35,763 bases of DNA from a virus, in the UHGV virus genome UHGV-0260253; one strand, 5' to 3'. Shown in pieces: positions 3,028 through 21,126 of this stretch. The notes beneath the pieces are model-generated. The model was not told the DNA's origin and ran no database searches. It worked only from the letters and a program-made list of their open reading frames with translations. The first letter of the stretch is position 1. Each line of letters begins with the position of its first letter. Both the position numbers and the translations under genes were made by a program.

Positions 3028-4106
3028 CAGAACGGGTCCTCCTGTACTCTGGCTTTTTTCTTTTTCCGCGCGCCGGGGGCTTCGGGTTCAGGCAGATAAG
3101 CATCAGGTGGGCCGACACGGATTTCCGTCAGGGTGCCGTTCTGGTCCTGAGTAAACGTGACTTCCGAGACAAGCAGTTCGGTATTGTCGAAACCACAGAC
3201 CGGATCGAAGACAATCACCCGCTGGTTGGGCTGCCACAGCGTACCGTTACCCTGTCGCCAGCCCTGCACCACATAGGTGGTTTCATCCGTCCGCGCCGCC
3301 CGTTGTCGGGCTTCAAAGTCAGCACGCGCAATACAGCCTGCCCCCGTGGCCTGCCCTGTCTGCCTGATATACATCGGACGGTAACGAGCAATAAATGCGT
3401 CCTCTGTGCGGGCCCGCAGCGCGGTGGTGGTGGCCTCACCGAAATCATCGTCGTTTCCGGCACGCTGCCCCGCCACCTGGTAAACTGAAAACCGCTCCCG
3501 GATACTCTTCTCCGTATCACAGGAAAGGATGTTTTCCCCAACTACCAGCGCGGTATGTGCCCGCGTTGAGCCAATACCGCCAATCACCAGCCTGCCGTGC
3601 GGGTCGTCGTAAGCCAGCGCCTGCTGCTGACCGAGTATTTTGTTGATTACCTCAATCACCGTTTCACCGTGATCAGGCTGAACATCAGGAATAACACCCG
3701 ATGGCGCACCGCTGTTCACCACCTCAATGCCGAAAGGCGCAGCAAGCGCCTGCGCAATCTGCACCAGCGAGCGTCCGTTAAACTGTGTCGGTTCGGCTGC
3801 ACAGTCAATCAGGTCAGCCGTCAGACTACGTCCGGCAATACCGGTGCTGACCGAACGGGCATCGTAACGAACGGGAGTCGCCTCCACCCAGCCGGTAATC
3901 ACCAGCTCATCACCAATCAGCACTTCCACTTTTGAACCGTTTTTAATGCGCGGCTGAAGCGTGGTGATACCCTCATCTCCCGGCCACTGGCGAGTGATCT
4001 CCACACTGAAATCCCGCGCCAGCCGTTCAATACCGGCACCGATGCGCACCGATGTCCAGCCATTCCACTCCCGGCCATTTACCCGTAGCGTGACATTGTC
4101 GTTCAT
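3027..4106 (-). CDS. Mu P-like tail protein (late control D family, baseplate hub)
   Basis: 359-aa ORF after the DNA-circulation gene; start codon overlaps upstream stop. Confidence 0.65.
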   Translation of the reverse strand: MNDNVTLRVNGREWNGWTSVRIGAGIERLARDFSVEITRQWPGDEGITTLQPRIKNGSKVEVLIGDELVITGWVEATPVRYDARSVSTGIAGRSLTADLIDCAAEPTQFNGRSLVQIAQALAAPFGIEVVNSGAPSGVIPDVQPDHGETVIEVINKILGQQQALAYDDPHGRLVIGGIGSTRAHTALVVGENILSCDTEKSIRERFSVYQVAGQRAGNDDDFGEATTTALRARTEDAFIARYRPMYIRQTGQATGAGCIARADFEARQRAARTDETTYVVQGWRQGNGTLWQPNQRVIVFDPVCGFDNTELLVSEVTFTQDQNGTLTEIRVGPPDAYLPEPEAPGARKKKKARVQEDPF

Positions 4107-5479
4107 TGCACTGGCACCTTCAGAGGGATCACCGGCACAAAGCCGGGATGCGTAATGGCATTACGCCGGATAATGTCCGCGTCACGCGCCGCGTTATCAA
4201 ACCAGGTCGCCGCCAGCACCAGCGCGGGTAAAACCTCATCCGGTGTGCGCTGAATGATCCGTGCAGACTGTTCAAGGCGCGTGTTGATATCCGCATTCAG
4301 ATCTGCTTTCACCCGGCGCAGCGCCAGAAACAGCGCATCACTGGTTGTACGGGACAACTCCTTATCAATTGCCGTATTCAGTGTGTCGCGAATGTCAGTC
4401 AGTTCTTCCCACGTCGGCAGGTCAACCGTGTTTTTCACCGCCGGTGCATTGTTCAGTGCCGGATGCGTGACGGAAGGCCAGCCAGTGCTCTGCGCGGGTG
4501 TTGTTGCCTGCCCCACTGCGGAATTCTGCATCACCGCGGAAGTTATTGGCGCAGGCAATCGGGTGACGGCATACGCCGCTTCGCTGATTGCGGTCGTACG
4601 AAGGGTGCTGGCAACCACGTTACGCTGCTGCGTCGCCGTGGCGGTGGTTTTACTGTCCGTTTTCCAGACGCCGCGCGGTTGCAGATCGCTGCCGAGGCTG
4701 ACACCGGAAAGCGTTTTGATCATGGTGACCAGGTCGCTGGCGTTACCATAAAGGCGTTTCCCGGTACGCCACATTTTCTGCACCTGCTCAACGAAATTTT
4801 TGCCTGACGATGGCGGCGGCAGAAGTACCGAGATATCCCCCTGCAACAGCCTGGCGGCATCCGATACGGCAGAATCCACCACTTTCATCGCATCAGAAAC
4901 ATACCCCAGCATTATGCTGGCATTACCGATAACGTCGTTCTGCACGAAATCCGCCACGCCATCGATACTGAAACCGCTGAAGCTGTCACTGATGCAGTCA
5001 TCCAGTGCAGAACAGGATGACATCAGCGTCTGCGCCGTCGCCGCACCTGAAGTGGGGTAAGAGAGTTCTCCCGCTTCGACAAACTTCAGGTCAAAGCGGA
5101 CAATACGCCCTTCACTCTTCAATGTGCTGACCCGAACTTCCCCGTCAACACAGACTTTCAGCTCACCATATGTCGGATGGACAAGCGTGCCGGGACCGGG
5201 TTTATTCAGCGCTTCAATCAGGCGATCGCGCTGGTCAAAGCAGTCATCTCCCACCACATAAGCCGTGATGGACGGGCGGAAAGTGATTTTCCCCAGGTCT
5301 TCGGTATAGGGTTTGTCGCGGTTCGGGTATTCGTGTGTTTCCACACGGCGACCGGTTCCCGCACTTTCTTCTTCAACCTTAAACGGCACGCCGCGAAATG
5401 ACGCGTCCTGAAGTCTGTCACGCCAGCCTGAAGACGACGAAAGTAATGAAGGTCGGGTGGGAAATGAGGATAAATCCAT
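4103..5479 (-). CDS. DNA circularisation protein N-like (Mu N type)
   Basis: 458-aa ORF directly after the tape-measure gene, 4-nt overlap with the P-like gene. Confidence 0.65.
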   Translation of the reverse strand: MDLSSFPTRPSLLSSSSGWRDRLQDASFRGVPFKVEEESAGTGRRVETHEYPNRDKPYTEDLGKITFRPSITAYVVGDDCFDQRDRLIEALNKPGPGTLVHPTYGELKVCVDGEVRVSTLKSEGRIVRFDLKFVEAGELSYPTSGAATAQTLMSSCSALDDCISDSFSGFSIDGVADFVQNDVIGNASIMLGYVSDAMKVVDSAVSDAARLLQGDISVLLPPPSSGKNFVEQVQKMWRTGKRLYGNASDLVTMIKTLSGVSLGSDLQPRGVWKTDSKTTATATQQRNVVASTLRTTAISEAAYAVTRLPAPITSAVMQNSAVGQATTPAQSTGWPSVTHPALNNAPAVKNTVDLPTWEELTDIRDTLNTAIDKELSRTTSDALFLALRRVKADLNADINTRLEQSARIIQRTPDEVLPALVLAATWFDNAARDADIIRRNAITHPGFVPVIPLKVPVQ

Positions 5480-17359: not shown

Positions 17360-17484
17360 ATGCGGCACTCCTGGTTAAATTTCATTTTTCGCGGGTATAA
17401 AAAAACGATGGGGCGGGCAGTCCGGAAGACGTCAGGTCACAGGGATTTGACCCGCCCCTCCCCTCAGACAGTTGAGAATTATTA

Positions 17485-17835
17485 TCACTTTAACCGTTCA
17501 CGGGCCGTCTTCGCCTTATGGCAGGGCCAGCACAGACTCTGCAGATTACTGTCGGCATCAGTGCCGCCATGCGCTTTAGGAACGATGTGGTCAACGGTTT
17601 TCGCCTCACGCACCACACCAGCATGCAGACATGACTGACACAGGCCTTTGTCACGCTTCAGCACACGTTCACGGATGACGTCCCATTTCGAACCATAACC
17701 GCGCTGGTGACGGGATTGTCCAGGTTTGTATTGCTTCCAGCCTTCGCCTTTGTGGCTTTCGCAGTAGCCTGACGGGTCAGTAGTGGTATGGCGGCAGCCG
17801 CGAACACGGCAGGCTTTTGGTGTGCGTGGTGGCAT
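17485..17835 (-). CDS. HNH endonuclease (packaging-associated)
   Basis: 116 aa with CxxC...HxxxxH...N...CxxCH pattern (CRVRGC...DHIVPKAHGGTDADSNLQSLCWPCH); sits just upstream of terminase genes as in HK97-like cos phages. Confidence 0.85.
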   Translation of the reverse strand: MPPRTPKACRVRGCRHTTTDPSGYCESHKGEGWKQYKPGQSRHQRGYGSKWDVIRERVLKRDKGLCQSCLHAGVVREAKTVDHIVPKAHGGTDADSNLQSLCWPCHKAKTARERLK

Positions 17836-17924
17836 TATCCGTCCTTCGGTGATGTAGCTGCTTCTGTTGGGTTCATAGTTGAAATCCTGTTACGCCATAG
17901 CAATGTATCTGCCATCGTAATGGC

Positions 17925-17951
17925 AATAAAAAAGCCCCGCGATTGCGGGGC
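17925..17951 (-). terminator. Rho-independent terminator after moron gene
   Basis: GCCCCGC-AATC-GCGGGGC hairpin followed by TTTTTTATT on the minus strand. Confidence 0.55.
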
Positions 17952-17969
17952 TGATGGTTATATAAAATA

Positions 17970-18371
17970 TTAGCCAATTAAGTCGTCAATTTTTTTCTGA
18001 ATATAACCATCCAGCAAACGCCTTGAAACGTCAACTAATGTTCCAATGCTTGCATCTTTAAAGCCGGTCTTGAGAGAATTCCAAACCTCTTTATTCCTGA
18101 GAGCTTCAAGGAAGTCATGACCGCTTGAAGTTAAGCGTAACGGTATAACGAACCATGATCCTCCATCAGCAGCCTCAGAGAAACCAAACCCATACTTGCC
18201 GTCTGTTCTAGCAATTAGTTGACGATCAGCCAATAAACGCATATGGAATAAAAATTCATCGGTGCTGTAGTCATACCCAGCCAGCTGCAGCTGCTTTATA
18301 TCAGTATGCGGCTCTTCAGACGCCTCGAAAGCGTCCAAAAGACCTTTCAAATACTCGTGATCTATTTTCAT
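17970..18371 (-). CDS. Hypothetical moron protein (133 aa)
   Basis: AT-rich ORF with AAGGGA SD 7 nt upstream; lies between lysis cassette and HNH/terminase, followed by a terminator. No family assigned with confidence. Confidence 0.5.
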   Translation of the reverse strand: MKIDHEYLKGLLDAFEASEEPHTDIKQLQLAGYDYSTDEFLFHMRLLADRQLIARTDGKYGFGFSEAADGGSWFVIPLRLTSSGHDFLEALRNKEVWNSLKTGFKDASIGTLVDVSRRLLDGYIQKKIDDLIG

Positions 18372-18445
18372 AACATTCCCTTTTATGAATGAGGGAATAA
18401 TTTAACATTAAACTAGGCACTTGATGAATACTTGGCGTAATGCCT

Positions 18446-18640
18446 CTAGTGGTCGAGTTGCAATACACCGTGCTTCAGTAACTCTAAATAAGCGATGAGC
18501 CAGGCATAAACGGGGATAAACTCACAATCATCTTCGAATTCTGGGATGATTCCGGTAGCGATGGTGTATTGAGGCTGGCTATCTTCCTTCGCGAAGGATG
18601 CAAGGTCTTCAAACTGCTTAGCTGTAAGAACCACTGTCAT
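18446..18640 (-). CDS. Hypothetical small acidic protein (64 aa)
   Basis: AT-rich ORF; SD spacing poor (GAGG 1 nt before ATG), so protein-coding status is uncertain. Confidence 0.3.
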   Translation of the reverse strand: MTVVLTAKQFEDLASFAKEDSQPQYTIATGIIPEFEDDCEFIPVYAWLIAYLELLKHGVLQLDH

Positions 18641-18652
18641 ACCTCTGTCGTT

Positions 18653-18674
18653 AAAAAACCTCGCTATTGCGAGG
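18653..18674 (-). terminator. Rho-independent terminator at end of lysis cassette
   Basis: CCTCGC-AATA-GCGAGG hairpin followed by TTTTTT on the minus strand; overlaps Rz1 stop. Confidence 0.5.
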
Positions 18675-18921
18675 TTCGCGATTGCTCAATCGTTCGGATG
18701 TCCGCTTTATCTCTGTTACACTGCCCCAGCGCCAACAACAAGCTGACATTCAAATCCAAACTGCCGCCATAGGTCAGCGGCTCAGGAATAGCTGGTTGCA
18801 GTGTTTCAGTGGTCAGATTCGCCGGTAATGGCACCGCTGGAACTGGCACGTAAACTGTCCGCGTACTTCCGCAACCGGTCAGCAGCGGCAGCAGGCACAG
18901 CACGTGAAGCACAATCATCAT
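18664..18921 (-). CDS. Rz1: Rz1-like outer-membrane spanin (lipoprotein), embedded in Rz in +1 frame
   Basis: Internal start MMIVLHVLCLLPLLTGC within ORF 18664..19173; lipobox LLTGC, Pro-rich mature region. Confidence 0.7.
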   Translation of the reverse strand: MMIVLHVLCLLPLLTGCGSTRTVYVPVPAVPLPANLTTETLQPAIPEPLTYGGSLDLNVSLLLALGQCNRDKADIRTIEQSRTSQ

Positions 18922-19198
18922 CCGCAACAGCCATTTTGATATCTTCCTGGGTTCTCTGTGACTCCAGTGTGCTCTGCTGTTTTGCATGCTGGTTAGCCTC
19001 CAGTACTGTATTGACGATTTGCAGTGATTGCAGGACGTTATTGGTAATGGCAGTTGCCGATTTGGCATTTTGTACAGCCTCATCAGCACGTTTCTTTTCG
19101 TGCTGATATTTGCTGTAGTAGTAGTTGGCTGACCAGATGAAAGAACTGACGACAGTAAAAAGGAAAGCAGCAATAACCAGCTTATAGCTTAACTTCAT
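18806..19198 (-). CDS. Rz: Rz-like inner-membrane spanin
   Basis: 130 aa, N-terminal TM helix then coiled-coil periplasmic domain; 17-nt overlap with endolysin. Confidence 0.8.
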   Translation of the reverse strand: MKLSYKLVIAAFLFTVVSSFIWSANYYYSKYQHEKKRADEAVQNAKSATAITNNVLQSLQIVNTVLEANQHAKQQSTLESQRTQEDIKMAVADDDCASRAVPAAAADRLRKYADSLRASSSGAITGESDH

Positions 19199-19658
19199 TT
19201 ACCACCCCACCAGCCTCTTTAAATCGGGCAATCAGGTCACCGATTTTATGTTCATACTGACCGTAACCTGCACCAGGTAACGACGCCCAGATATTGCTGC
19301 AACGGTCGATTGCCTGACGAATACTGCCGCGGTCAATCATCGGTAAAGCACCACGCTCTTTAATCTGCTGCAGAGCTACAGCGTCCTGGCTTTCTGGAGA
19401 AAAATCTTTCAGGCCAAGCTGTTTACGGTAAGCATCCCACCAGCGTGAAAGAAGCTGGTAACGTCCGGCGGCTGTTGATTTGAGTTTGGGGTTTAGCGTG
19501 ACAAGTTTGCGAGGGTGATCGGAGTAATCAGTGAACAGTTCGCCACCAACAATAACATCATAACCGTGGTTACGTGTCGGTTGTCGCCCGTTATCCGTTC
19601 CTTCTGACCATGCCACCATATCCAGGAAAGCTTTACGCTGGGAATTTAGTGCCTGCAT
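19182..19658 (-). CDS. Endolysin, lambda R-like lytic transglycosylase
   Basis: 158 aa; AFLDMVAWSEGTDNGRQPTRNHGYDVIVGGELFTDYSDHPRKLVTLNPKLKST... closely matches lambda R as recalled. Strong AAGGAG SD. Confidence 0.9.
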   Translation of the reverse strand: MQALNSQRKAFLDMVAWSEGTDNGRQPTRNHGYDVIVGGELFTDYSDHPRKLVTLNPKLKSTAAGRYQLLSRWWDAYRKQLGLKDFSPESQDAVALQQIKERGALPMIDRGSIRQAIDRCSNIWASLPGAGYGQYEHKIGDLIARFKEAGGVVNEVKL

Positions 19659-20073: not shown

Positions 20074-21126
20074 TTATTTCCCCACCAGTTCACTTACCTC
20101 TTTCACCGTCTGATTAAACCGCTCTGACTCAAGTTCAACACCTAACGCCCGACGCCCCAGCGCCATTGCTGCTTTTATTGTGGAACCGGATCCCATAAAG
20201 AAATCAGCAACCAGATCGCCTGGTCGACTACTGGCATTGATTATTTGCCGGAGCATATCCGCCGGTTTCTCGCACGGATGTTTACCCGGATAGAACTGAA
20301 CGGGCTTATGCGTCCAGACATCGGTATAAGGCACGGAGACTGATACGGAGAAATAGCGCCGGAGTGATTTAAACTCATCCAGCAATTCAGAATATTTGCG
20401 ATTCAGTGAATCATAAGATGCCACCAGCTGGTGGTGTGGTTGTTCCAGTTGCTGTTCCTGAAACTTCTCTGCCGCTATACGGGAAAACAGTGCCTGTAAC
20501 TTCCGGTAGTCAGCCTCATTCGGCAACTGCCACTGACTGGCACCAAACCAGTGGGAAACCATATTTTTCTTACCTGTGGCTTCGGCAATTTGTTTTGCCG
20601 TTATACCCAGTTCGGCACGAGCATTCCTGAAATACGATATCAGCGGTGCCATTATGTGCTGTTTGAGTTCCCTTTCTTTTGCCGCATAGCCGTCACTTTT
20701 GCCACGATATGGCCCATGGTAATGTTCAGCAAACAGAACGCGCTCTGTGGCAGGAAAATATGCACGCAGACTTTCTTTATTACACCCATTCCAACGTCCG
20801 GACGGCTTCGCCCAGATGATATGGTTAAGCACGTTGAAACGTTCACGCATCATGATCTCAATATCAGATGCCAGGCGATGTCCACAGAACAGGTAAAGGC
20901 TTCCGGCAGGTTTCAGCACCCGCCAGAACTGGGCCAGACAGTGATCCAGCCACTTAAGGTAATCTTCGTCCCCTTTCCACTGATTGTCCCAACCGTTGGG
21001 TTTCACCTTGAAGTACGGCGGATCGGTAACAATCAGGTCAATGGAATCATCAGGCAGGGACTGAATAAAATGCAGGCAATCAGCGTTGATTAAATCAACA
21101 CTGTTTATTTTTACAGTATTTTTCAT
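20074..21126 (-). CDS. DNA methyltransferase (N6-adenine/N4-cytosine class, DPPY motif)
   Basis: 350 aa; motif IV LIVTDPPYF near N-terminus and motif I FFMGSGST near C-terminus (beta-class order). Confidence 0.85.
   Translation of the reverse strand: MKNTVKINSVDLINADCLHFIQSLPDDSIDLIVTDPPYFKVKPNGWDNQWKGDEDYLKWLDHCLAQFWRVLKPAGSLYLFCGHRLASDIEIMMRERFNVLNHIIWAKPSGRWNGCNKESLRAYFPATERVLFAEHYHGPYRGKSDGYAAKERELKQHIMAPLISYFRNARAELGITAKQIAEATGKKNMVSHWFGASQWQLPNEADYRKLQALFSRIAAEKFQEQQLEQPHHQLVASYDSLNRKYSELLDEFKSLRRYFSVSVSVPYTDVWTHKPVQFYPGKHPCEKPADMLRQIINASSRPGDLVADFFMGSGSTIKAAMALGRRALGVELESERFNQTVKEVSELVGK

What the first reader, a model, noticed from the sequence alone, without database searches (positions are those of the whole stretch)
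17925..18674. Terminator-bracketed AT-rich moron between lysis cassette and HNH/terminase
Two small genes (64 and 133 aa) of much lower GC than the flanking modules sit between a terminator at the end of Rz/Rz1 and a strong terminator at 17925-17951. This lysis-to-packaging junction is a known moron insertion point in lambdoid phages. The products are uncharacterised here and could be an anti-defence, superinfection-exclusion or toxin/immunity pair expressed from the lysogen.
Basis: partly seen in the sequence, partly recalled or inferred. Interest (0 to 1): 0.55.

Follow-up and report, generated by a model that had tools for sequence, protein, structure and literature searches.

The report
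Two independent cargo genes in prophage slot
Between the lysis and DNA-packaging genes of an E. coli prophage lie two real accessory genes of unknown function; they are two separately travelling cassettes in a highly variable cargo slot, not a matched pair, which is ordinary for temperate phages.

Summary
On the minus strand of an SfV/e14-like E. coli prophage, a 64-aa ORF (18640-18446) and a 133-aa ORF (18371-17970) lie between Rz/Rz1 and HNH-TerS-TerL. Hairpin-plus-T-run terminators bracket them at 18676-18653 and 17952-17928, and GC is 42.5% against 51% for the window.

The slot is variable. In SfV-like relatives Rz1 and HNH are 26 bp apart, and other relatives carry at least 10 different insert lengths. 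Only 10 of 5,426 complete E. coli genomes hold this exact cargo.

The two genes are not a unit:
- **ORF64** belongs to the phage N15 gp56 family (phrog_9518). It is acidic and has no known fold. It almost always sits directly behind the last spanin gene, after a conserved hairpin and Shine-Dalgarno block that leaves no room for a promoter. It is therefore probably a Q-dependent late gene.

Both genes are under purifying selection. There is no hit to defence, toxin or antitoxin models. Function and expression in the lysogen remain untested. This is an ordinary moron slot with catalogued families of unknown function.

The parts
18653..18676 (-). Intrinsic-terminator-like hairpin H1 (AACCTCGC-AATA-GCGAGGTT plus T6). 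The Rz1 stop codon TAG (18666-18664) lies across the loop and the first base of the 3' arm. It forms the 5' boundary of the ORF64 cassette.
   Evidence: Fold. The hairpin, T-run and AACnACnGAGG Shine-Dalgarno block are conserved in front of ORF64 homologues behind unrelated lysis genes (A5, A7). The strict motif is present in 67 of 76 IMG/VR loci, and variant forms in 6 more. Homology with L002 starts at 18674. The equivalent hairpin in N15 is annotated as a putative rho-independent terminator.
18446..18640 (-). ORF64: a 64-aa acidic (pI 4.2), soluble protein of the phage N15 gp56 / mEp390_053 family (phrog_9518). Function unknown; probably a late gene.
18405..18444 (-). Diverged copy (8 mismatches in the 31-nt core) of a roughly 40-nt imperfect palindrome, consensus GGCATTACAGCAGGCATTCACTGAGTGCCTGyGATAATGC. 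This 'junction element' follows the stop codon of late-region accessory genes in many enterobacterial phages.
   Evidence: Alignments A3, A9 and A11. Exact 17-mer in 34 fetched loci. 100% identical 40-41 nt copies in phi80 and several Klebsiella phages, 100% over 37 nt in mEp390, and 97.5% in Pectobacterium phage ZF40. Window copy scored.
18399..18407 (-). Candidate extended -10 promoter motif TGtTAAATT for ORF133. It is weak (hexamer matches 4 of 6; the -35 TTCATC matches 3 of 6 at an 18-nt spacing).
   Evidence: Read from the sequence. TGnTAAATT or TGnTATAAA is conserved upstream of DUF2513 genes in E. coli, Klebsiella, Citrobacter, Serratia and phage Chlobot (A3, A9). The 9-of-12 consensus scan did not report it.
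18374..18399 (-). Inverted repeat ATTCCCT-N10-AGGGAAT, whose 3' arm contains the Shine-Dalgarno sequence of ORF133. This is a predicted SD-sequestering RNA hairpin.
   Evidence: MFE -7.9 kcal/mol. An SD-pairing hairpin is the MFE structure in 8 of 10 DUF2513 loci despite different sequences, but the individual z-scores are modest.
17970..18371 (-). ORF133: a DUF2513 (PF10711, phrog_585) winged-helix protein, acidic (pI 5.1). It is a stand-alone cargo gene.
17928..17952 (-). Strong intrinsic terminator T2 closing the ORF133 cassette.
   Evidence: Other cargos in this slot (DUF2513 in L008, L013 and L021; GrlR in L006; a 167-aa gene in L094) each end with their own G+C-rich hairpin and T-run (A8).
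17836..17927 (-). Spacer between T2 and HNH. It contains ATTGCCATTACGATGGCA (17927-17910) and a 13-codon uORF (17876-17835) whose stop overlaps the HNH start (TAATG).
   Evidence: Sequence. ATTGCCATnnnnATGG is also found directly after the terminators of cargo in L013 and L006 (A8). In the empty slot, Rz1 and HNH are 26 bp apart.

Best explanation
The region is not one two-gene moron. It is two independently mobile accessory cassettes stacked in a hypervariable cargo slot between the lysis cassette and the HNH/terminase module of an SfV/e14-like E. coli prophage.

**Cassette 1: hairpin H1, Shine-Dalgarno sequence and ORF64 (N15 gp56 family).**
- It travels as a block and is almost always joined directly to the 3' end of whichever spanin gene lies upstream.
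- It has no room for a promoter. I infer that it is transcribed only when Q-modified RNA polymerase reads through H1. That would make it a late protein made together with the lysis and packaging proteins.
- Its biochemical role is unknown. It is a small, acidic, cytoplasmic protein.

**Cassette 2: ORF133 (DUF2513).**
- It is a stand-alone winged-helix protein of the MarR/PadR-like fold.
- It meets three of the four sequence criteria of a moron: it is inserted between genes that are adjacent in relatives, it has low GC, and it has its own terminator. The fourth criterion, its own promoter, is met only by a weak extended -10-like motif.
- The most likely mechanism is inferred, not shown. I propose a small dimeric wHTH regulator or binding protein made at a low level from the prophage, with translation damped by an SD-sequestering hairpin, that alters host or incoming-phage gene expression. 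It would also be made late by read-through.

**What is shown and what is inferred.**
- Shown: gene reality, the fold class of ORF133, slot variability, independence of the two genes, and the cis hairpins.
- Inferred: timing of expression, DNA binding, and any benefit to the lysogen.
For: **Slot variability.**
- The same flanks span 1114 bp (empty), 1490, 1590, 1708, 1776, 1831, 1901 (this window), 2018, 2094, 2141, 2250 and 2278 bp in other E. coli genomes, with different annotated cargo.
- The full cargo is present in 10 of 5,426 genomes. About 40 more hold only an ORF64 homologue.

**Independence of the two genes.**
- Downstream of ORF64 in 59 viral contigs: DUF2513 in 8, HNH directly in 8, and about 22 other clusters.
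- DUF2513 occurs without ORF64 in Klebsiella (behind DUF2560), in Citrobacter lambda-like prophages (behind pRha), in phage Chlobot (early region) and in Thiothrix (behind a type IIG restriction-modification enzyme).
- No recurrent neighbour was found in 61 genome loci.

**ORF64 cassette.**
- The conserved hairpin and SD block lies directly before the start codon, behind at least 5 types of lysis cassette.

**ORF133.**
- Terminator.
- The upstream non-coding block is more conserved than third codon positions. For example, L008 against L021 gives 0.94 upstream and 0.42 at third positions.
- SD hairpin in 8 of 10 loci.

**Purifying selection** on both genes.
Against: - No expression data are available. 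The promoter call for ORF133 is weak: it fell below the scan threshold.
- Part of the conserved upstream block belongs to a slot-wide junction palindrome rather than to DUF2513 itself. The palindrome follows 32 of 59 ORF64 genes whatever comes next, and it precedes only enterobacterial DUF2513 genes.
- DUF2513 proteins are acidic across the family (median pI about 5.2). The recognition helix and wing carry few conserved basic residues (A2). DNA binding is therefore not assured.
- The ORF64 model is of only moderate confidence (pLDDT 74), so 'no known fold' is a weak statement.
- In all 10 E. coli genomes and 8 viral contigs that carry this DUF2513 allele, ORF64 is its upstream neighbour. A local functional link in this sublineage cannot be excluded.
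Confidence: 0.55

Rival explanations
1. Both genes are purely late (lytic-cycle) accessory genes. They would be transcribed only from pR' by Q-antiterminated polymerase reading through H1, and they would act during lytic growth, for example in host takeover, anti-defence, lysis timing or packaging. They would not act in the lysogen.
For: - Both genes are co-oriented with the late operon and lie inside it.
- ORF64 has no promoter space.
- The ORF133 promoter motif is weak and was not picked up by the consensus scan.
- The ORF133 SD is sequestered in a hairpin.
- The same junction element lies directly in front of HNH in a Klebsiella phage, where a constitutive promoter would be odd.
Against: - ORF133 has its own strong terminator and low GC, like classic morons.
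- DUF2513 homologues are widespread outside phages, which argues against a role specific to the lytic cycle.
- In phage Chlobot the homologue lies in the early region next to xis/int.
Confidence: 0.3
2. The two genes form a two-component system, such as a toxin/antitoxin, an abortive-infection pair or an exclusion-plus-immunity pair. The system would be expressed together from the prophage.
For: - The genes are adjacent, on the same strand, small, and bracketed by terminators.
- The pair is inherited together at 98.7-100% identity in 10 E. coli genomes, including behind a different lysis cassette, and in 8 viral contigs.
- A few distant DUF2513 genes lie next to restriction-modification enzymes, ShosA or a YafQ toxin.
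Against: - Each gene mostly occurs without the other.
- The gap between them is 74 bp and contains a separate conserved junction element.
- There is no hit to any PADLOC, NCBIfam or Pfam toxin or antitoxin model.
- ORF64 lies behind a terminator with no promoter.
- The neighbours of DUF2513 are heterogeneous, and defence genes are a small minority among them.
Confidence: 0.07
3. ORF64 is an accessory component of the lysis system, for example a cytoplasmic regulator of spanin, endolysin or holin function, rather than cargo. ORF133 would then be the only moron in the region.
For: - ORF64 homologues sit immediately after the last spanin gene in the window, L003, L094, mEp390, N15, SaltyDalty, the Nissle prophage, Kluyvera and many viral contigs.
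- The conserved hairpin often contains the spanin stop codon.
Against: - Close relatives with the same lysis genes, such as SfV, SfIV and L007, lack ORF64. It is therefore not required for lysis.
- It has no membrane segment or signal peptide and no similarity to holins, antiholins or spanins.
- In L002 it follows non-lysis genes.
- It associates with at least 5 unrelated spanin types, which fits positional hitchhiking on a linker as well as it fits a functional link.
Confidence: 0.15

Closest known systems
Morons of lambdoid phages (Juhala/Hendrix definition, e.g. HK97 and HK022; the Q-holin moron described in SfIV, PMC3851460)
   Same: The DNA is inserted between two genes that are adjacent in related phages (Rz1 and HNH are 26 bp apart in L007). 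GC is lower than in the host phage. A factor-independent terminator lies downstream. The insert sits within the late operon at a junction between modules.
   Different: Only ORF133 fits the moron definition, and its promoter is weak and unverified. ORF64 lacks any promoter space and behaves as a trailing late gene. Expression in the lysogen has not been shown.
Phage N15 gp56 / mEp390_053 (phrog_9518)
   Same: ORF64 aligns over its full length: 44% identity to N15 gp56 and 75% to mEp390_053. It has the same position after the lysis genes and the same upstream hairpin, which the N15 record annotates as a putative terminator.
   Different: The window allele departs from the family at nearly invariant positions, with W at the G47 column and L at the S52 column (A4). 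No member of the family has a known function.
DUF2513 (PF10711) and YjcQ-like prophage winged-helix proteins; structurally, MarR/PadR/HxlR-type wHTH regulators
   Same: ORF133 is above the Pfam gathering score for DUF2513. It has the wHTH fold with C-terminal helices and an 'RLTxxGHxF' strand-to-helix motif of the kind seen in PadR/MarR proteins (the motif is in A2; the comparison is from my own knowledge). The closest viral structures include YjcQ proteins.
   Different: ORF133 does not match any MarR or PadR sequence model at E <= 1. The family is acidic. The wing is enlarged to four strands. The most conserved motif (FKDASIGT) lies outside the wHTH. No operator, ligand or target is known.
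Conserved 'linker' or boundary sequences at module junctions of lambdoid phages (Clark et al. 2001, HK620; recalled from memory, not checked here)
   Same: Hairpin H1 and the 40-nt junction palindrome are short non-coding blocks that stay nearly identical between phages whose flanking genes are unrelated. Homology breaks exactly at their edges.
   Different: Whether these blocks promote recombination, or are instead promoters, terminators or RNA-processing sites, was not tested.

Membership tests
Moron (independent transcription unit inserted in a phage operon) | Extra DNA between two genes that are adjacent in related phages | tested here: met
   Rz1 and HNH are 26 bp apart in L007 and SfV-like genomes, against 828 bp here.
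Moron (independent transcription unit inserted in a phage operon) | Own downstream factor-independent terminator | tested here: met
   Hairpin 17952-17933 plus T-run; 0 of 200 shuffles fold as well.
Moron (independent transcription unit inserted in a phage operon) | Own promoter | tested here: inconclusive
   ORF64: no space for one, with 12 nt between the T-run and the ATG. ORF133: a conserved TGnTAAATT extended -10-like motif, but it is below the consensus-scan threshold and partly embedded in a slot-wide palindrome.
Moron (independent transcription unit inserted in a phage operon) | Base composition different from the surrounding phage genome | tested here: met
   42.5% GC against 51.2% for the window and 54-59% for the packaging genes. 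The lysis genes are at 48-53%, so the contrast is weaker on that side.
Moron (independent transcription unit inserted in a phage operon) | Expressed from the repressed prophage | not testable with these tools
   No transcriptome data were available.
DUF2513 (PF10711) | Profile match above the curated gathering score over the whole domain | tested here: met
   49.6 bits against a cut-off of 29.6; residues 2-108 cover profile positions 1-98 of 100.
MarR/PadR-type transcription regulators | Winged helix-turn-helix fold | tested here: met
MarR/PadR-type transcription regulators | Sequence-profile membership (Pfam MarR or PadR models) | tested here: not met
   Only DUF2513 is reported at E <= 1. 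A profile search against PDB sequences found nothing at E <= 1.
MarR/PadR-type transcription regulators | Sequence-specific binding of a dimer to a palindromic operator at its own promoter | not testable with these tools
   Palindromes exist upstream. The main one is a slot-wide element that is not specific to DUF2513, and the protein family is acidic.
N15 gp56 family (phrog_9518) | Full-length profile match | tested here: met
   E 3.7e-32; residues 1-64 cover profile positions 2-66 of 66.
Type II toxin-antitoxin or two-gene immunity pair | Conserved co-occurrence of the two genes | tested here: not met
   The pair is present in 8 of 59 ORF64 viral loci. DUF2513 has no recurrent neighbour in 61 loci.
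Type II toxin-antitoxin or two-gene immunity pair | Homology of either protein to known toxin, antitoxin or defence families | tested here: not met
   No PADLOC or NCBIfam hit at E <= 1, and no relevant Pfam hit.
Phage lysis cassette component (holin, antiholin, endolysin, spanin) | Present wherever the cognate lysis genes are present, with membrane or periplasmic targeting | tested here: not met
   SfV, SfIV and L007 have homologous lysozyme, Rz and Rz1 genes (about 89-92% DNA identity over the flanks) but lack ORF64. ORF64 is acidic, has no long hydrophobic segment, and hits no holin or spanin family.

The most novel reading that the evidence does not exclude
The short structured non-coding blocks around these genes may be portable 'linker' elements that let small gene cassettes be swapped in and out of the late region of unrelated enterobacterial phages. 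The blocks are the terminator-like hairpin H1, which carries the stop codon of whichever spanin gene lies upstream, and the 40-nt junction palindrome, which is 100% identical in phi80 and several Klebsiella phages and 97.5% in Pectobacterium phage ZF40. On this reading they would form a cassette-exchange system for morons. ORF64 (N15 gp56 family) and DUF2513 would be frequent passengers whose products are new anti-defence or exclusion factors.
Probability: 0.15. Interest if true: 0.6.

Novelty: new member of a known kind. Interest (0 to 1): 0.3.

Why it matters
Cargo slots in temperate phages are where lysogenic-conversion, exclusion and anti-defence genes are usually found. A precise map of this slot gives concrete constructs for testing two widespread families that have no known function. 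The map covers the cassette boundaries, the genes that travel alone, and the cis elements that travel with them. The two families are DUF2513, present in many Proteobacteria and Acidobacteria, and the N15 gp56 family, restricted to enterobacterial phages.

On present evidence this is an ordinary moron slot. Its main value is to correct the 'pair' reading and to point out the conserved junction elements.

Tried and rejected
- **PADLOC and NCBIfam scans of both proteins:** no hits.
- **PDB sequence searches:** only chance-level hits with single sequences and with profiles.
- **Longer family members that fuse the ORF64 domain to other segments:** scans in Pfam and PHROGs found only other phage families of unknown function.
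- **Literature searches** for DUF2513, PF10711 and the RefSeq protein accessions: zero papers.
- **Conserved partner for DUF2513:** I clustered neighbours in 61 loci and scanned 122 flanking proteins in Pfam and PADLOC. No recurrent partner emerged. A few restriction-modification enzymes, ShosA and YafQ neighbours appeared, but so did housekeeping genes such as DnaK. The reading 'defence-island gene' is rejected as unsupported.
- **RNAalifold on the ORF133 leader:** no consensus structure, because indels put the alignment out of register. Single-sequence folds were used instead.
- **Conserved upstream block as an autoregulatory operator of DUF2513:** I first read it this way, then downgraded the idea. 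The same palindrome follows ORF64, rha, a mom-like gene and DUF2560 whatever gene comes next.
- **Rfam:** no family matches the window or the junction element.
- **Fur-box and CRP-site readings of GATAATGCTAAATTAT:** considered by eye and dropped as too weak.
- **Tool limits:** the afdb50 fold library was unavailable. The first search for related loci attempt with the broad ORF64 alignment failed.
Full report
**Context**

Window 17400-19300 is 100% identical to a prophage of E. coli BS15R-A (NZ_CP063349). The RefSeq annotation of that record identifies the genes, all on the minus strand of the window. In order of transcription they are:
- an antitermination protein,
- a DNA methyltransferase (21126-20074),
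- a lambda-family holin,
- a GH24 lysozyme (19658-19182),
- Rz (18806-19198) and Rz1/LysC (18987-18664),
- a 64-aa hypothetical protein,
- a DUF2513 protein,
- HNH (17835-17485),
- a P27-type small terminase (17368-16865) and the large terminase (16868-15135),
- an HK97-type head and a Mu-like contractile tail.

The nearest isolated phages are SfV, SfIV, SfII and ST64B.

**Checking the observation**

- Both ORFs exist at the stated coordinates.
- The downstream terminator is strong. It has 8 pairs, 7 of them G-C, followed by a T-run, and 0 of 200 shuffles fold as well.
- The upstream terminator is a 8-9 bp hairpin followed by T6. The Rz1 stop codon lies at the loop, across the loop and the first base of the 3' arm.
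- GC is 42.5% in the region, 51.2% in the whole window, 54-59% in the packaging genes and 48-53% in the lysis genes.
- Both ORFs are under purifying selection. dN/dS is 0.06-0.32 for ORF64 and 0.09-0.27 for ORF133.
- The short plus-strand ORFs that overlap them have no support.

**The slot is variable**

About 1,480 of 5,426 complete E. coli genomes match one or both flanks. Only 4 match the whole 1.9-kb query and only 10 carry the 750-bp cargo.

Where both flanks are joined, the span takes at least a dozen discrete lengths, from 1114 bp (empty) to 2278 bp. Annotated cargos include nothing (L007; 26 bp between the Rz1 stop and the HNH start), a GrlR-family protein (L006), an S1 peptidase, and various hypothetical genes on either strand.

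**The two genes are separate cassettes**

*ORF64.*
- It matches phrog_9518 over its full length and has no credible Pfam hit.
- tblastn finds it in mEp390 (gene 053), N15 (gp56), SaltyDalty, and a Klebsiella and an Enterobacter phage.
- An exhaustive profile search finds only 48 clusters at 50% identity among 1.84 billion proteins. Some of these are fused to other small phage domains of unknown function.
- In every context examined it starts 24-60 nt after the last lysis gene. That gene can be an embedded Rz/Rz1 pair, a DUF2514-type Rz, the 91-aa and 63-aa spanin pair of Klebsiella-type cassettes, or N15 gp55.
- The roughly 45 nt before its ATG are almost invariant: GCCTCGCAATAGCGGGGC, a T-run, then AACnACnGAGG (A5, A7).
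- The stem keeps pairing through compensatory and wobble changes. The spanin stop codon TAG lies in the loop in the window, L003, mEp390 and N15.
- In 76 IMG/VR loci the strict motif is present in 67, and recognisable variants in 6 more.
- Homology between the window and L002, which has different upstream genes, begins at 18674, two bases inside the 5' arm of this hairpin.
- The hairpin has the form of an intrinsic terminator, and the SD follows within 12 nt. ORF64 therefore cannot have a promoter of its own. I infer expression by Q-antiterminated read-through, which is how lambdoid late operons are known to be transcribed.

*ORF133.*
- It is DUF2513 (49.6 bits, cut-off 29.6) and phrog_585. 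It has 91 homologue clusters, mostly in Enterobacterales.
- The AlphaFold model is confident (pLDDT 96.2, pTM 0.87). It is a winged helix with a four-stranded wing and three C-terminal helices.
- The family is acidic (median pI about 5.2). Its most conserved residues are F42/H43, R79-L80-T81, G84-H85, W97 and the FKDASIGT loop.
- Contexts are diverse. In Klebsiella prophages it lies between a DUF2560 gene and HNH. In Citrobacter lambda-like prophages it lies between pRha and Nu1. In phage Chlobot it is in the early region next to xis/int. In Thiothrix and a Syntrophorhabdales MAG it is next to type IIG restriction-modification enzymes.
- Clustering of neighbours in 61 genome loci found no recurrent partner. 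Pfam and PADLOC scans of 122 flanking proteins gave a heterogeneous list.
- Among 59 viral contigs with ORF64, the next gene is DUF2513 in 8, HNH in 8, and one of about 22 other clusters in the rest.
- The 'pair' is therefore a local juxtaposition. This argues against a toxin/antitoxin or immunity pair.

**Cis elements around ORF133**

The 74-bp gap contains three elements.

1. *A diverged copy of a 40-nt imperfect palindrome* (consensus GGCATTACAGCAGGCATTCACTGAGTGCCTGyGATAATGC), at 18444-18405.
   - I first took this for an operator of DUF2513.
   - The same element, at 95-100% identity, starts 1-4 nt after the stop codon of phi80 rha, ZF40 gp36 (mom-like) and the Klebsiella DUF2560 gene, and follows ORF64 in 32 of 59 loci, whatever gene comes next. 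Homology breaks right after GATAATGC.
   - It occurs once per prophage and in 104 of 5,426 E. coli genomes. It matches no Rfam family.
   - It therefore belongs to the slot, not to DUF2513.
2. *TGtTAAATT (18407-18399), an extended -10-like motif.*
   - It is shared by DUF2513 loci, but it is weak and was not reported by the consensus scan.
3. *An inverted repeat (18399-18374) that pairs the SD.*
   - An equivalent SD-pairing hairpin is the MFE structure in 8 of 10 DUF2513 loci with different sequences.
   - By eye, similar hairpins precede other cargos in this slot (A11).

The upstream block is more conserved than third codon positions of the gene, with medians of 0.68 and 0.43. Something in it is therefore under constraint. 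Whether that is a promoter, an RNA structure or a recombination linker is open.

Each cargo in this slot ends with its own terminator (A8).

**Most likely mechanism**

The anatomy is an array of cassettes: lysis genes, H1, ORF64, junction palindrome, DUF2513, T2, then HNH and the terminases.

- ORF64 is most likely a late protein of unknown role. It is dispensable for lysis, because SfV-like phages with homologous lysis genes (about 89% DNA identity) lack it.
- ORF133 meets three of the four sequence criteria for a moron, and the fourth (its own promoter) only weakly.
- Its fold suggests a small dimeric regulator or binding protein. I judge low-level expression from the prophage plus late read-through as somewhat more likely than late-only expression, but this is inference.
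- Nothing here shows defence, anti-defence or exclusion.

**Comparison with what is known, and novelty**

Morons at module junctions of lambdoid phages are well known; SfIV, for example, has one between Q and the lysis genes (PMC3851460). DUF2513 and phrog_9518 are catalogued families without function, and I found no paper that mentions DUF2513.

The finding is a new instance of a known kind. The conserved hairpin and palindrome at cassette boundaries are the most interesting by-product. They resemble the 'linker' sequences proposed for exchange of lambdoid modules; that comparison comes from memory of Clark et al. 2001 and was not checked here.

**Verdict**

- Interest is low to moderate.

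Noticed in passing
window 18405-18444 (- strand); L175 2501-2541 (phi80); L176 2501-2540 (ZF40); L177 2501-2540; L018 3200-3240 (mEp390): A roughly 40-nt imperfect palindrome, GGCATTACAGCAGGCATTCACTGAGTGCCTGyGATAATGC, lies 1-4 nt after the stop codon of unrelated late-region accessory genes: phi80 rha, ZF40 mom-like gp36, Klebsiella DUF2560 and ORF64 homologues. It is 100% identical in phi80 and Klebsiella phages and 97.5% in ZF40. Homology to the flanks breaks exactly at its 3' end. It occurs once per prophage, in 104 of 5,426 E. coli genomes, and has no Rfam match. Serratia variants keep pairing through G-U, which hints at an RNA hairpin. It also contains a TGnGATAAT extended -10-like motif. 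Its function is unknown.
   Followed up: partly
window 18653-18676 (- strand); L019 2944-2967 (N15); L018 2961-2982 (mEp390): The terminator-like hairpin in front of ORF64 homologues is conserved across unrelated lysis cassettes. Its 5' arm and loop encode the last codons and the TAG stop of whichever spanin gene lies upstream, so different spanins all end in (A/T/S)(S/P)Q*. This looks like a portable junction that rewrites the C-terminus of the upstream gene.
   Followed up: partly
window 18374-18399 (- strand); L124 about 3240-3275; L094 about 1050-1080; L020 2974-2995: Cargo genes in this slot tend to have their Shine-Dalgarno sequence paired in a small hairpin. This holds for DUF2513 in 8 of 10 loci and, by eye, for a 189-aa and a 167-aa cargo gene. 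It suggests damped or conditional translation.
   Followed up: partly
window 17835-17876 (- strand): A 13-codon uORF (MNPTEAATSPKDG) ends in TAATG, overlapping the HNH start codon. It is present in the window and in L002 but not in relatives with an empty slot or with GrlR cargo. It may provide translational coupling for HNH after the insertion.
   Followed up: no
window 17910-17927 (- strand); L013 about 4440-4460; L006 about 1990-2010: The motif ATTGCCATnnnnATGG(CA) directly follows the terminator T-run of three different cargos: DUF2513 in E. coli, DUF2513 in Citrobacter, and a GrlR-family gene. In L013 a further copy of the 40-nt junction palindrome comes after it (A11).
   Followed up: no
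window 18446-18640 (ORF64 residues 39-56): The ORF64 allele in the window differs from the family consensus at nearly invariant positions (G39C, E44V, G47W, S52L and S54L, in 'AWLIAYLELL' against 'TGLIAYSDSL'). Yet the identical protein is found on 160 contigs. This may reflect altered specificity or relaxed constraint.
   Followed up: no
window 20074-21126 and the Q-to-holin interval; L004, L005 and L006 4066-4590: The interval between the antiterminator and the holin is a second variable slot. Here it holds a DNA methyltransferase, as in the Nissle prophage and N15 gp52. Relatives carry an opposite-strand KAP-family NTPase or other hypothetical genes instead.
   Followed up: no
L015 773-4408 (Thiothrix nivea); L050 2602-6333 (Syntrophorhabdales MAG): In two distant bacteria the DUF2513 gene lies directly downstream of, and on the same strand as, a roughly 1,070-aa type IIG restriction-modification enzyme. 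In Thiothrix the gap is 30 nt, and two unknown ORFs follow. With only two cases, this is too little to call an association.
   Followed up: partly
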